Assembly (NCBI RefSeq): GCF_030013595.1
Contig: NZ_CP122768.1
Direction: 5' to 3' (one strand)
DNA: 64,000 nucleotides
Source: Escherichia coli
GTDB lineage: Bacteria; Pseudomonadota; Gammaproteobacteria; Enterobacterales; Enterobacteriaceae
Part shown: in pieces, positions 3,001 to 6,000 of the stretch
Layout: every line of letters begins with the position of its first letter
Position numbering within the stretch: position 1 is the stretch's first letter
Made by a program: the position numbers

Positions 3001-6000
3001 CCAGAGCTGTGGTTTGTATTTACTGAAAGGAAGATAAAGCAGAGGTAAACACTGTTGCGGTGAACGGAGAAGACTGAAATTATTCTCCGTAATTACAAAC
3101 AACAGTGATCTGATCCGGTTTTTTTACCGTTACGGGTTTCCGGGGATCAATTTTATAGACCGGGGTAATGACCACGCCGGAATTTATGGAGAAAAGCGGG
3201 ATCCAGCAATAAACGTCCGGATATTTCTGTGTCTCCGGAATACCTTTTGCGCCAGAGGCCATCAGATCTTTAACGCTCACGAAAAATGACTGCCGCAGAT
3301 CAAAAAAGTACTCGTCATATATCACGTCTTTTGCCAGCAGGATGACTGCATTACCAACAGCCGCTTTTACAGGTGTTTCACCGGATGGATTATCGTGATT
3401 GTATATTGTTCTTTCAATATAAATAAAACAGGCATATTTTGCCTTCTCCCCGGACAGTTGCATCTGGTATTCGCAAATGTCTTTGATACGCCGGCTTTCA
3501 ACCCGTCCAATCATCTTATCCCGGCGATAGTGTCTTTTATGTTTCAGCGCGTATAGAACACCATTTGAACTGTCAAACTCCAGGATTCTTTTGGTGAAAA
3601 GTTTGTTTTCCCAGATTTCCAGACAATACTTCTCTGCACTGACGACATTGCGTTTGTGAGGAAGATCCCGTTGATACACTCCATTTAATAAGCGTGACTG
3701 CAGTTTGCCTGCAAGTTGATAATAACAGTTAATATCGTTAAGGACAGGTGCTGTGGCGCTGAGTAATGCGTCGATTACCTTAGAGCGCGAAAGTTTGTGG
3801 GTATGACAGTACTCATCCACAATTCGCAGCGTCTCATCACTGGTCATATTGAAAGTTATACGTGTTGTCATGATGAAGTTTTCTGTTAATCATATTGGTT
3901 GATATGCATAACATTCCATAAAAAACACTGTTAATTCATATAATTAATTTTTTGTGTGTTTTTGTCCTTGAGTGGTGGAAAGCAGGGTTACTGCCACTGT
4001 ACTCAGCATAACTCTATCACATAGAACCACAGAAAATGAAGCATTGCTCAGGGGGGAGGTACTTATACGAGTTCTCTGAACCGTGATAACCAGTATTTTT
4101 CATTTTGGGTGATTTGTCGTTACAGCTACAGGCAGTTCATGTACTATTAAAAAATAATTAAGGTTAATTAGTATTATTTATAGAAGTATGGTTATGTAAA
4201 TGAACCCTGTAATTCTGTAATTCCACCTTGTAACCCAATCCTGTAGACGAATCTCTCATAAAGATATGCTCATAGAAGTATCTGTACAGAGATATTCTCT
4301 GTAGTAGTACTTGTAACTCTGTCCTTAACTCTCTCTGCTGTAATGTAATCTCGTAACACCTGAATATAAATCTGTCATGTACACACACTGACTGTAATGT
4401 ACTTTGTTAAGTAATGCCTGTTGTGTGGAGGCTATTCTGGCTAAATAAGAGTATGAATCGTCAGTGTCAATAGTGTGGATAACGGTGGTTGAGGGATTTA
4501 CTGTTAATGATCTGCTCTTGCAACTCACCTGATGAGTATTAGTGGTAATACATAATCTTACTCGTAAAAAAGTATACCTTATGCCATTAAACAGCCTTCC
4601 GGAGTGTTGTTTACTATCCGATTGCCTCTGTTACTTCTGTAATGCATTAATACGTGTAACGCCACGTTACTTGTAATATCTGGTTATGGCGTTATGCCTT
4701 CAGCATTTAAAATATTTTATTACCGGAGAGACAGGAAAGTGGAAAGACTTCCGGGATGACGTCAGAATACGTTATTCTAACGGTATTATGTTAACGTTAA
4801 TCACAGCACAAAATAACGAGAGGATAATGGAAGTTAAGACCAAAGAAGACTGGCTATATCAGTTTCGTCGTTGTTTATCCCGGGAGACACTGGAAAAAGT
4901 GATTTCCCACACGCGTTATAAACTTACCCCTGCGGAGCTGGAAGCTTTCAACTCTGCGGTCGATCACCGGCTGGCAGAACTGACCATGAACAAACTTTAC
5001 GATCGTGTTCCCGCTTCAGTCTGGAAATATGTTACCTGATAAATGTTTCTGATGAAGTACAGTCGTCACAATGACATCATATCAGATATTATCTGCGCTG
5101 TGATTGACAGTCACGTATGCCGTTCTCTGTATGGTTCTGATACCCGGGTGTGCTCCCACTTTCTCTGTGGCGCCCGGGGAGTTGTGAACTTGCACGTCTT
5201 CGTGTGATAACGTTTTCTTCAAAAATTACGCCAGCGCTTCTTCCTGTGTTACAGAACACGAGGAAGAAACATGAATACTTACAATGCCAATCCCGGTTAC
5301 GAAATGGATCCCCAGCTCCTGACACACTTTAACCAGCATCTGGATTCATTATTCGGGGTCTATTCGAAGCTGTTACCGTTCAGAATGGATTTTGCTTACC
5401 GAAAAAACACATTCAGCTACGGATGCGCCTGCAGGTACGCCATGTGCGCGGAGATGCTGCAACTGATTAACGAGGTGGGAGAGAAACTGGTCGGGTATGC
5501 CTGGGTAATGGAATATACGGAACGTAAAGGGCTTCACATTCATTTTGTGGGCTATCTGAACGGTCAGAGCCACAGGAGTTCGTATCTGGTATCCAGATTG
5601 ATGGGAGATATCTGGAGGCGGGTTACCGATGGTAATGGTTACTACCACTGGTGCCGGTTTAATAAAAATTATCCGGTAAACATTAATCACGTCATTCACT
5701 ATTCAGACCACAAAGCGGTGAATGCTTTACGCTATGCCATTAGCTACCTTGCCAAACGAGAACAGAAAGAATGTGGCATCGTTCTTGGTTGCAGCAGGCT
5801 TCCTGAAAAAAGTCACCGGGGGCGACCGCGACTGGACAGCACCCTGCCGGGGATATGTTCTCAGGTATAAGGTTCTGAGCGACAACTGCGGACTGGCTCT
5901 AATCTTTGCAGTCGGTTCCGGAGGCTACTTCAGAGGCACTATGCATTTTTTACGATGTGGTTACTCCGTATGAACGAAACCATACGGAGACTTAACCATA

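What the first reader, a model, noticed from the sequence alone, without database searches (positions are those of the whole stretch)
3080..4685. RHH-like 263-aa protein next to an 800-bp AT-rich region dense in YTGTAAY repeats
The 263-aa ORF begins with a beta-alpha-alpha pattern consistent with a ribbon-helix-helix DNA-binding domain, followed by ~220 aa of unknown function. The adjacent intergenic region is unusually long for bacteria and carries at least 14 degenerate copies of a YTGTAAY motif, some tandem (ctgtaattctgtaatt) and some paired (gctgtaatgtaat), plus an imperfect palindrome centred on CTGTACAG (4282-4305). It could be an operator array for the RHH protein, an iteron-type origin serving the nearby Rep-like gene, or an unannotated structured RNA.
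Basis: partly seen in the sequence, partly recalled or inferred. Interest (0 to 1): 0.55.

Follow-up and report, generated by a model that had tools for sequence, protein, structure and literature searches.

The report
Hypervariable repeat tract beside island regulator gene
The TGTAA motifs are real and mark an unstable tandem-repeat tract in the non-coding control region of a mobile E. coli genomic island, next to a genuine but uncharacterised DNA-binding protein; what the tract does is inferred, not shown.

Summary
The 263-aa ORF belongs to a very small family (Pfam PF27701/UCP007319) with a ribbon-helix-helix N-terminus and a C-terminal domain of unknown fold. The spacer is non-coding and runs to 4826 (955 bp), because the hha-type gene starts at 4827. 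YTGTAAY occurs 8 times on the + strand against 0.86 expected (0 of 5000 shuffles).

Relatives in about 750 E. coli genomes show the motif is the core of a head-to-tail 13-bp array (NTGTAAnTnnACC) with 4-11 copies. In the window's own clade there is also a perfect octamer VNTR, (CTGTAATT)n, with n = 1-23 between near-identical flanks; the window has n = 2.

On the other strand the motif reads RTTACA, a -35-like hexamer. The first unit provides the -35 of a conserved leftward promoter-like site. Longer arrays form stacked promoter-like sites, a property shared by only about 3% of random 13-mer arrays.

There is no Rfam hit, no excess RNA folding and no similarity to phage or real plasmid DNA. 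Orthologous modules in other genera lack the array.

My best reading (about 0.4) is a slippage-prone cis-regulatory repeat array for the RHH/AlpA genes. Rivals are a neutral VNTR (about 0.27) and an origin for the neighbouring HUH Rep-like gene (about 0.15).

The parts
3080..3871 (-). 263-aa protein of family PF27701/UCP007319: RHH N-terminus (about residues 1-45), a long helix, and a roughly 200-aa alpha/beta domain of unknown fold
   Evidence: Only 37 representative clusters among 1.84 billion proteins. No Walker A motif.
3885..3912 (.). Inverted repeat GTTAATCATAT-N6-ATATGCATAAC just upstream of the start codon of the 263-aa gene; candidate auto-operator for the RHH protein
   Evidence: The only part of the spacer clearly retained in Citrobacter-type orthologues (GTTATGCA ... 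ATGATTAAC). Binding is inferred, not tested.
3883..3890 (+). CTGTTAAT, first of three same-strand copies (also 3928-3935 and 4501-4508); a one-base variant of the CTGTAAT core
   Evidence: Three copies against 0.06 expected, 0 of 3000 shuffles.
4142..4192 (.). Block of about 90% A+T, nearly invariant among E. coli relatives; holds the -10 (AATAAT, 4178-4173) of the leftward promoter-like site
4173..4200 (-). Sigma-70 promoter-like site TTTACA-16-AATAAT (10 of 12) pointing at the 263-aa gene; its -35 is the first TGTAA unit read on the other strand
   Evidence: The same site is found in L080 and equivalent sites in CFT073. It is a consensus match only; no transcript data are available.
4194..4253 (+). 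Contracted 13-bp tandem array: ATGTAAATGAACC, (CTGTAATT)x2+CCACC, TTGTAACCCAATC, CTGTAGACGAATC
   Evidence: Relatives carry 4-11 in-register 13-bp units. TRF reports period 13 with 9.4 copies in L007. Unit positions T2 G3 T4 A6 A11 C13 are nearly invariant, while positions 1, 7, 9 and 10 vary freely.
4207..4222 (+). Perfect octamer VNTR (CTGTAATT)n, n = 2 in the window
   Evidence: n = 4, 6, 12, 15 and 23 read directly in other E. coli genomes with the right flank 100% identical over 462 bp; n = 1 and 11 are implied by match lengths.
4273..4315 (.). Imperfect palindrome (core ACAGAGA-TAT-TCTCTGT, 4286-4302)
   Evidence: DNA fold z -2.4. The stem is broken by single uncompensated substitutions in relatives, so it is probably not a conserved hairpin.
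4299..4420 (+). Second, degenerate run of TGTAA-like units at roughly 13-bp spacing; reads like the decayed edge of the same tandem array
   Evidence: families D1, D2, D4.
4474..4482 (-). Perfect DnaA-box consensus TTATCCACA
   Evidence: It is kept in 5 of 7 relatives and is 7-8 of 9 in the other two. There is one other perfect box in the 64-kb window.
4827..5039 (+). Island-borne hha paralogue (hha2/hha3 type)
   Evidence: NCBIfam Hha 106 bits, cut-off 90. RefSeq annotation. Literature PMC4864382 and PMC6480617. Truncated or deleted in several relatives.
5271..5870 (+). YagK/YfjJ ('inovirus Gp2') protein with HUH-like motifs (LHIHF; YLAK)
   Evidence: Pfam REP_ORF2-G2P E 1.6e-4 and YagK_YfjJ_C E 5.6e-4. 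HxH and YxxK are kept across six of the seven aligned family members.
2491..2697 (-). AlpA/Vis-type excisionase-family regulator downstream of the 263-aa gene
   Evidence: AlpA, UCP007319 and YfjJ travel together next to P4-type integrases in other genera.

Best explanation
The stretch 3872-4826 is the non-coding control region between two divergently transcribed gene sets. Together these form the conserved core of a tRNA-Phe-integrated genomic island.
- Leftward: the RHH protein (UCP007319), then AlpA.
- Rightward: an hha paralogue, an HUH Rep-like YfjJ protein and two zinc-ribbon proteins.

The YTGTAAY motif is the conserved core of a head-to-tail tandem repeat that grows and shrinks by replication slippage. 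It consists of an older 13-bp array and, in this clade, a perfect 8-bp VNTR.

On the strand of the RHH gene each unit reads RTTACA, which is -35-like. The commonest unit also reads TAGAAT, which is -10-like. The tract therefore sits on and just upstream of the leftward promoter, and in long 13-bp arrays it makes a stack of overlapping promoter-like sites. I infer that it acts in cis on transcription of the RHH/AlpA genes. The likely mechanism is a set of repeated RNA-polymerase and/or repressor sites, with the neighbouring RHH protein the most likely ligand. Repeat number would then set the output.

Shown: the repeats, their register, their copy-number polymorphism, the promoter-like geometry, the RHH fold and the gene neighbourhood.

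Inferred: that the promoter fires, that any protein binds the repeats, and that copy number matters.
For: - Motif enrichment and strand bias (8:1 exact; TGT(T)AA 15:1) are far beyond shuffles.
- The array keeps a strict 13-bp register with 4-11 units in 14 sampled genomes.
- Conservation within units is position-specific.
- The octamer VNTR ranges from n = 1 to 23 between near-identical flanks.
- The promoter-like site TTTACA-16-AATAAT has its -35 in the first unit and its -10 in an invariant AT block, and it points at the RHH gene.
- In CFT073 six leftward promoter-like sites lie 13 or 26 bp apart inside the array; the scanned region (both strands) has 12 sites against 4.1 +/- 2.1 in shuffles.
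- Only about 3% of random 13-mer arrays of the same composition give any such site.
- The RHH N-terminus is supported.
- A related motif, YTGTTAAT, lies in the inverted repeat at the RHH gene's start and is kept in distant orthologues.
- Known RHH proteins bind arrays of short tandem repeats around promoters. Examples are omega of pSM19035 and ParR/parC of R1 (from my own knowledge).
- R388 StbA binds two sets of five 9-bp direct repeats around its own promoter (PMC3098194).
Against: - There are no transcript or binding data.
- The promoter scan is a loose consensus match.
- Orthologous modules in Citrobacter, Salmonella and other hosts keep the RHH protein with the same N-terminal strand but have no TGTAA array. 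The array is therefore not needed for the family's basic function.
- The array persists in a record where the RHH gene has been replaced by IS3.
- Outside the repeats the spacer diverges at about the synonymous rate of the neighbouring yfjJ gene: about 10% against 8/75 four-fold sites. Broad purifying selection is therefore not evident.
- Same-strand orientation and periodicity follow automatically from tandem duplication.
- The octamer array creates no promoter-like sites.
- In the window itself the 13-bp array is reduced to about four units.
Confidence: 0.4

Rival explanations
1. Neutral mini/microsatellite. An AT-rich spacer of a horizontally acquired, probably H-NS/Hha-silenced island acquired a 13-bp tandem duplication. 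This has since expanded, contracted and decayed at its edges. A later internal 8-bp duplication became an unstable VNTR. The motif enrichment, single orientation and periodicity are by-products of descent, with no sequence-specific function.
For: - Copy number is almost unconstrained, with the octamer ranging from 1 to 23.
- The array is confined to the E. coli lineage. It is absent from orthologous modules and from 100,044 species-representative genomes.
- The degenerate units at 4299-4420 look like a decayed array edge.
- The spacer diverges at about the neutral rate.
- The adjacent hha gene is decaying in many strains.
Against: - No sampled genome has lost the 13-bp array; the minimum is 4 units.
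- Unit positions differ sharply in conservation.
- The promoter-like geometry is found in only about 3% of random arrays.
- The tract sits exactly at the -35 of the one strong promoter-like site.
- Tandem short repeats in regulatory regions of mobile elements are usually protein-binding sites (from my own knowledge).
Confidence: 0.27
2. Origin for the excised island. After AlpA/integrase-driven excision the circular island is replicated, or transferred as single-stranded DNA, from this region. The repeats would be the binding locus for the HUH YfjJ protein, as in the 'bind' repeats of rolling-circle origins. Alternatively they would be iterons next to an AT-rich unwinding element and a DnaA box.
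For: - The YfjJ protein keeps HxH and YxxK motifs and matches REP_ORF2-G2P.
- A 50-bp block of about 90% AT abuts the array, and a perfect, mostly conserved DnaA box lies 220 bp away.
- A 41-kb circular GenBank record (CP088535.1) consists of an island of this family with an integrase and no recognised replicon.
- The genes to the left, seen in a near-identical E. coli genome because they lie beyond the window's left end, are mostly transcribed away from the spacer. They include an antirestriction gene, a RadC/JAB-domain gene and a toxin-antitoxin pair, like a plasmid leading region.
- Islands with an integrase, AlpA and a Gp2-like gene are a recognised class of uncertain mobility (bioRxiv 10.1101/2024.08.29.610337).
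- oriT-only islands are reported to be common (bioRxiv 10.64898/2026.01.13.699239).
Against: - HUH initiators nick at a conserved hairpin, and the only palindrome here is not conserved.
- Iteron-type theta origins use winged-helix initiators, and none is encoded here.
- Iterons are normally 17-22 bp.
- hha lies between the array and yfjJ.
- Orthologous modules with the same HUH gene lack the array.
- There is no BLASTN similarity to any real plasmid or phage.
- The circular record is a single case, could be an assembly product, and its attP could not be verified.
Confidence: 0.15
3. Binding array for a different protein. Candidates are the AlpA/Vis-type excisionase-family protein, since such factors polymerise on direct repeats, the zinc-ribbon proteins, or a host factor.
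For: - AlpA is always part of the module and is co-transcribed with UCP007319 in some relatives, with a 73-bp gap in L019.
- Directional head-to-tail repeats suit asymmetric monomer filaments such as lambda Xis or P2 Cox (from my own knowledge).
Against: The same absence of the array from orthologous modules applies. The 13-bp and 8-bp spacings are not the roughly 10.5-bp phasing typical of excisionase filaments. No binding data exist.
Confidence: 0.1
4. Unannotated structured RNA or small protein gene.
For: The region is long and unannotated in about 750 genomes. A rightward TATAAT-containing promoter-like site occurs in CFT073.
Against: - No Rfam match at E<=1.
- Folding energies equal those of shuffles, z -0.18 and -0.45.
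- The array is unstructured.
- Indels of 8 and 13 bp cut every ORF across the array.
Confidence: 0.03

Closest known systems
Omega (RHH) repressor of inc18 plasmid pSM19035 and its heptad arrays; also ParR/parC of plasmid R1 (from my own knowledge)
   Same: An RHH DNA-binding protein is encoded next to a run of short (7-11 bp) tandem repeats that overlap its own promoter. Repeat number differs between sites.
   Different: Omega and ParR are small proteins with characterised partners, whereas this protein carries a 200-aa domain of unknown fold. No ParM/ParA-type NTPase is encoded nearby. The spacing here is 13 or 8 bp. Binding is untested, and orthologues lack the array.
StbA and the stbDR repeats of plasmid R388 (PMC3098194)
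   Same: Two sets of five 9-bp direct repeats (11-bp period) surround the promoter of the gene for the protein that binds them. They sit in a mobile element's control region next to oriT.
   Different: StbA is a helix-turn-helix protein. The function there (segregation and control of conjugation) is demonstrated. Here nothing is demonstrated, and no oriT or relaxase of a known family is present.
Promoter-region simple-sequence contingency loci, such as the 7-bp repeats upstream of Haemophilus influenzae hmw1A/hmw2A or TAAA upstream of Neisseria nadA (from my own knowledge)
   Same: Perfect short-unit tandem repeats lie immediately upstream of a promoter. Copy number ranges widely among otherwise identical alleles.
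   Different: Those loci have measured effects of repeat number on expression. E. coli is not known for this mechanism. Here only the population polymorphism is shown.
Double-strand origin of rolling-circle plasmid pMV158: CopG (RHH), RepB (HUH) and direct-repeat 'bind' locus (from my own knowledge)
   Same: An RHH protein, an HUH nuclease and a set of direct repeats occur in one short module.
   Different: pMV158 has a conserved nick hairpin and demonstrated replication. Here the palindrome is not conserved and replication is unknown.
Integrase/AlpA/Gp2-like defence islands (bioRxiv 10.1101/2024.08.29.610337) and the SRL and she-type islands of Shigella and E. coli (PMC6980539)
   Same: The gene core is shared: P4-type integrase at a tRNA or tmRNA gene, AlpA, an 'inovirus Gp2' protein, a RadC-family gene and a defence cargo (BREX here). 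In the SRL island, orf39-41 are YfjJ, Hha and Vis/AlpA.
   Different: Those papers do not describe this spacer, its repeats or the UCP007319 protein.

Membership tests
Ribbon-helix-helix (CopG/Arc/MetJ) superfamily, for the 263-aa protein | N-terminal beta-strand followed by two helices, recognisable by profile or fold comparison | tested here: met
Ribbon-helix-helix superfamily | Dimerisation through the paired beta-strands and sequence-specific DNA binding | not testable with these tools
Pfam PF27701 (UCP007319) | Match to the family profile over the full length | tested here: met
   The precomputed PF27701 label is on all homologues and on the called genes. The family is absent from the local Pfam-A copy.
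Iteron-type (theta) replication origin | Tandem direct repeats next to an AT-rich unwinding region and one or more DnaA boxes | tested here: inconclusive
   Repeats, a 90% AT block and one perfect DnaA box are present. However, the units are 13 or 8 bp rather than 17-22 bp, and their copy number is unconstrained.
Iteron-type (theta) replication origin | Adjacent gene for a winged-helix iteron-binding initiator (RepA/Pi/TrfA type) | tested here: not met
   The neighbours are Hha, an HUH-type YfjJ protein, zinc-ribbon proteins, the RHH protein and AlpA.
Rolling-circle or HUH origin (dso or oriT) | HUH nuclease gene adjacent | tested here: met
   HxH and YxxK motifs are conserved. The Pfam REP_ORF2-G2P match is weak, E 1.6e-4.
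Rolling-circle or HUH origin (dso or oriT) | Conserved hairpin carrying the nick site | tested here: not met
   The palindrome 4273-4315 loses pairing in relatives without compensation.
Rolling-circle or HUH origin (dso or oriT) | Similarity to a known oriT or origin, or demonstrated nicking, replication or transfer | tested here: not met
   BLASTN finds no real plasmid or phage match.
RHH-adaptor partition locus (ParR/parC, ParG/parH type) | Tandem repeats upstream of the adaptor gene, overlapping its promoter | tested here: inconclusive
   The geometry fits a predicted promoter only.
RHH-adaptor partition locus (ParR/parC, ParG/parH type) | Partner NTPase (ParM, ParA or TubZ) in the same operon | tested here: not met
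   No such gene lies in the neighbourhood. The protein has no Walker A motif.
Simple-sequence contingency locus (VNTR in a promoter) | Perfect tandem repeat with copy-number polymorphism between otherwise identical alleles | tested here: met
   (CTGTAATT)n with n = 2, 4, 6, 12, 15 and 23 read directly; the right flank is 100% identical over 462 bp. n = 1 and 11 are implied by match lengths.
Simple-sequence contingency locus (VNTR in a promoter) | Repeat number changes expression at appreciable frequency | not testable with these tools
   This needs reporter assays and fluctuation tests.
Curated RNA families (Rfam 15) | Covariance-model match | tested here: not met
   No match at E<=1 in 2400-5400 on either strand.

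The most novel reading that the evidence does not exclude
The repeat tract is a contingency switch. Slippage in the octamer or 13-mer array would change the number or spacing of promoter and operator copies. That would set how much RHH protein and AlpA are made, and so make excision, and perhaps HUH-driven replication, of a BREX-carrying island heterogeneous within E. coli populations. This kind of simple-sequence control is not generally credited to E. coli.
Probability: 0.12. Interest if true: 0.65.

Novelty: new member of a known kind. Interest (0 to 1): 0.4.

Why it matters
About one in seven complete E. coli genomes (about 750 of 5426) carries this spacer. It lies inside islands that move adhesins, toxin-antitoxin pairs and, here, a BREX defence system. 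How such integrase/AlpA/Gp2-type islands are regulated, and whether they replicate, is an open question.

The work gives concrete cis elements and a candidate regulator to test: a promoter-proximal repeat tract, a conserved inverted repeat at the RHH gene's start, and an RHH protein of a very small, unstudied family.

At minimum, the octamer tract is a highly polymorphic marker (1-23 copies) usable for strain typing. If the repeats prove inert, the finding is an ordinary VNTR in silenced foreign DNA.

Tried and rejected
- Rfam scan at a permissive threshold: nothing.
- RNA folding of the putative leftward leader and of the rightward 640 nt: no better than shuffles.
- Coding potential: the ORFs across the array (74 and 67 aa) are cut by 8- and 13-bp indels in relatives.
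- Phage collection search: no match.
- Plasmid collection search: only mislabelled chromosomes, one circular island record, and a short hha-proximal match on an IncHI plasmid.
- Pattern scan of viral contigs: 7 unrelated hits.
- Pattern scan of 100,044 species-representative genomes: 43 unrelated hits, none in Enterobacterales.
- Search for equivalent tandem arrays next to distant UCP007319 homologues: none.
- Fold searches for the C-terminal domain in PDB, AFDB50 and BFVD: no hit outside the family itself.
- PDB sequence searches: no useful hit.
- Attempt to confirm that CP088535.1 is an excised circle through a tRNA-Phe att core: failed, because its integrase is only 42% identical and uses another site.
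- Co-variation between RHH N-terminal residues and repeat sequence: too little variation, only N8S in two strains.
- Purifying-selection test: the spacer is no more conserved than four-fold sites of yfjJ.
- Literature search for the repeat sequence itself and for UCP007319: no papers.
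Full report
**Setting**

The window is part of an E. coli genomic island integrated at tRNA-Phe (20285-20360). A P4-type integrase lies beside the tRNA (18822-20087). Next comes a BREX-1 system (7322 to about 17000).

After that comes the module under study:
- two zinc-ribbon genes (6246-7057, +);
- a YagK/YfjJ 'inovirus Gp2' gene (5271-5870, +);
- an hha paralogue (4827-5039, +);
- the long spacer;
- the 263-aa gene (3080-3871, -);
- an AlpA/Vis-type gene (2491-2697, -);
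- a 190-aa gene.

Beyond the window's left end, a near-identical genome continues with a GTPase-family gene, Ag43, an antirestriction gene, a JAB-domain (RadC-like) gene and a CbtA-family toxin-antitoxin pair. The same gene set was listed, without functional study, in the Shigella SRL island, where orf39-41 are YfjJ, Hha and Vis/AlpA (PMC6980539). The hha copy is of the hha2/hha3 type described in pathogenic E. coli (PMC4864382, PMC6480617).

**Check of the observation**

The spacer has 36% GC against about 50% in its flanks. It really extends to 4826, because RefSeq and the Hha profile place the hha start at 4827.

Motif counts are as follows:
- Exact YTGTAAY occurs 8 times on the + strand and once on the - strand. 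The expectations are 0.86 and 0.34, and none of 5000 dinucleotide-preserving shuffles reaches 8.
- With one mismatch allowed there are 17 + strand copies against 9.6 +/- 2.8.
- Unbiased counting ranks TGTAAT and CTGTAA as the commonest 6-mers. It also reveals a one-base variant, CTGTTAAT, three times on the same strand (0.06 expected, 0 of 3000 shuffles).

**What the motif is**

BLAST finds the spacer in about 750 of 5426 complete E. coli genomes, always on chromosomes and never annotated. Aligning eight divergent copies and dissecting the repeat block in a larger set of genomes gives three results.
- The motif is the core of a strictly in-register, head-to-tail 13-bp array, NTGTAAnTnnACC, with 4 to 11 units. 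TRF reports period 13 with 9.4 copies in strain cS53a.
- Across 27 distinct units, positions T2, G3, T4, A6, A11 and C13 are almost invariant. Positions 1, 7, 9 and 10 vary freely.
- The window carries a contracted version (4194-4253). The dispersed copies at 4299-4420 keep roughly the same spacing and read like the decayed edge of the same array.

In the window's own clade the unit CTGTAATTCCACC has spawned a perfect octamer repeat. (CTGTAATT)n has n = 2 in the window. It has n = 4, 6, 12, 15 and 23 in genomes whose right flank is 100% identical over 462 bp. Match lengths imply n = 1 and 11 in others.

**What it is not**

It is not a structured RNA.
- No Rfam family matches even at E<=1.
- Both candidate transcripts fold no better than shuffles, z -0.18 and -0.45.
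- The array itself is unstructured, z +0.46.

It is not coding, because 8- and 13-bp indels cut every ORF across the array.

The palindrome at 4273-4315 folds moderately well as DNA in the window (z -2.4). It loses a base pair without compensation in most relatives.

The region has no similarity to phages or to genuine plasmids. A pattern for the array finds nothing related in viral contigs or in 100,044 species-representative genomes.

**The protein**

The 263-aa protein has no hit in the local Pfam-A but carries the precomputed label PF27701, UCP007319. The family is very small: 37 representative clusters among 1.84 billion proteins. It is restricted to Enterobacterales and Aeromonas.

**Neighbourhood conservation**

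In Citrobacter, Salmonella-like and other hosts the UCP007319 gene always travels with AlpA and a YfjJ/G2P gene. Two of the sampled loci also show a P4-type integrase immediately beside it. Order and orientation vary.

The YfjJ proteins keep HxH and YxxK motifs, consistent with an HUH nuclease. A recent preprint lists integrase, AlpA, a Gp2-like protein and RadC as the likely core of a widespread class of defence islands with unknown transfer functions (10.1101/2024.08.29.610337).

None of the distant modules has a TGTAA array or any comparable tandem repeat. What they share with E. coli is an inverted repeat immediately upstream of the RHH gene's start: GTTAATCATAT-N6-ATATGCATAAC at 3885-3912. 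This contains the YTGTTAAT variant. It is the better candidate for the family's ancestral operator.

**A mechanistic clue**

Read on the strand of the RHH gene, TGTAA is TTACA, which is -35-like. The commonest unit, GGTAGAATTACA, also contains TAGAAT, which is -10-like.

In the window the only strong promoter-like site in the spacer is TTTACA-16-AATAAT at 4200-4173. It points at the RHH gene. Its -35 lies in the first repeat unit and its -10 in a nearly invariant block of about 90% AT.

In CFT073, with eight 13-bp units, the scan finds six leftward promoter-like sites 13 or 26 bp apart. Units two apart give a 16-bp spacer. The scanned region, both strands, has 12 sites against 4.1 +/- 2.1 in shuffles. 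Only about 3% of random 13-mer arrays of the same composition give any such site, and the octamer array gives none. These are consensus matches, not evidence of transcription.

**Weighing the explanations**

I favour, at about 0.4, a slippage-prone cis-regulatory repeat tract on and upstream of the leftward promoter. It would provide repeated polymerase and/or repressor sites, with the adjacent RHH protein the most likely ligand. Known parallels are omega and its heptads, ParR and parC (both from my own knowledge), and StbA with the stbDR repeats of R388 (PMC3098194).

The main counter-evidence is the following:
- The array is absent from orthologous modules.
- It persists where the RHH gene has been replaced by IS3.
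- Copy number is nearly unconstrained.
- Outside the repeats the spacer diverges at about the synonymous rate of yfjJ. Spacer blocks differ by about 10%, against 8/75 four-fold sites. The RHH gene itself is 99.4% identical between the window and CFT073, which indicates a recombination breakpoint at its start.

These points give the neutral-VNTR reading real weight, about 0.27.

An origin for the excised island has circumstantial support. There is an AT block, one perfect and mostly conserved DnaA box at 4474-4482, and an HUH neighbour. There is also leading-region-like gene content to the left and a 41-kb circular record of such an island with no known replicon. Against it, there is no conserved nick hairpin and no iteron-type initiator. 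The unit length is atypical, and there is no similarity to any known oriT or origin. I put it at about 0.15.

Binding by AlpA or another protein is at about 0.1, and an RNA or small-protein gene at about 0.03.

**Verdict**

The feature is real and statistically robust. It lies in an unannotated but widespread control region, beside a genuine RHH protein of a very small, unstudied family. The refined description is new as far as the searchable literature shows. It comprises a 13-bp array, an octamer VNTR, the -35-like reading, a conserved inverted repeat and a lone DnaA box. The kind of element, tandem repeats in a mobile element's regulatory spacer, is familiar, and function is not established. 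Interest is moderate.

Noticed in passing
window 4207-4222; L074, L075, L080-L082: Perfect octamer VNTR (CTGTAATT)n. It has n = 2 in the window and 4, 6, 12, 15 and 23 in other E. coli genomes with near-identical flanks; n = 1 and 11 are implied by match lengths. It is a potential typing marker.
   Followed up: yes
window 5236-5270: Invariant inverted repeat GCTTCTTCCTGTGTT-ACAG-AACACGAGGAAGAAAC ending at the start codon of the yfjJ/G2P-like gene. As RNA it would pair the Shine-Dalgarno sequence (GAGGA). It is conserved in all six relatives that keep the gene.
   Followed up: partly
window 4827-5039 versus L002, L004-L007: The island-borne hha paralogue is intact here. It is cut to 49 aa in CFT073 and cS53a and largely deleted in three other strains, so this gene is decaying across the species.
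   Followed up: partly
L015 (CP088535.1, 1-41067): A 41-kb circular 'plasmid' record is in fact an island of this family. It carries a P4-type integrase, the hha/YfjJ/zinc-ribbon module with the repeat spacer, an antirestriction gene, yeeS/yeeT and a cbeA toxin-antitoxin pair, a coupling-protein-like gene and SSB. It has no recognised replicon. It is either an excised or episomal form or an assembly product.
   Followed up: partly
window 3871/3872 boundary: Mosaic structure: the 263-aa gene is 99.4% identical to the CFT073 copy, but the spacer beginning one base later is about 10% diverged. This implies a recombination breakpoint at the gene start.
   Followed up: partly
window 7322 to about 17000 and 18822-20360: A complete BREX-1 system (brxL, pglZ, pglX, brxC and further genes) is inserted between the integrase/tRNA-Phe end and the AlpA/UCP007319/YfjJ core. 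In relatives the core sits directly beside the integrase.
   Followed up: partly
window 4474-4482: A perfect DnaA-box consensus (TTATCCACA, - strand), conserved in 5 of 7 relatives. It is one of only two perfect boxes in the 64-kb window.
   Followed up: partly
window 6246-7057: Two adjacent, overlapping 'putative zinc ribbon' genes (129 and 141 aa) with repeated CxxC pairs always follow the yfjJ-like gene. No family matched in NCBIfam or PHROGs.
   Followed up: no
L009 about 5680-5725 (Citrobacter-type module): The spacer of the orthologous module has its own features. These are an inverted repeat, TATCACGATA ... TATCGTGATC, and C-rich TCCTCC-like repeats upstream of the G2P-like gene. Different lineages have thus evolved different cis elements at the same position.
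   Followed up: no
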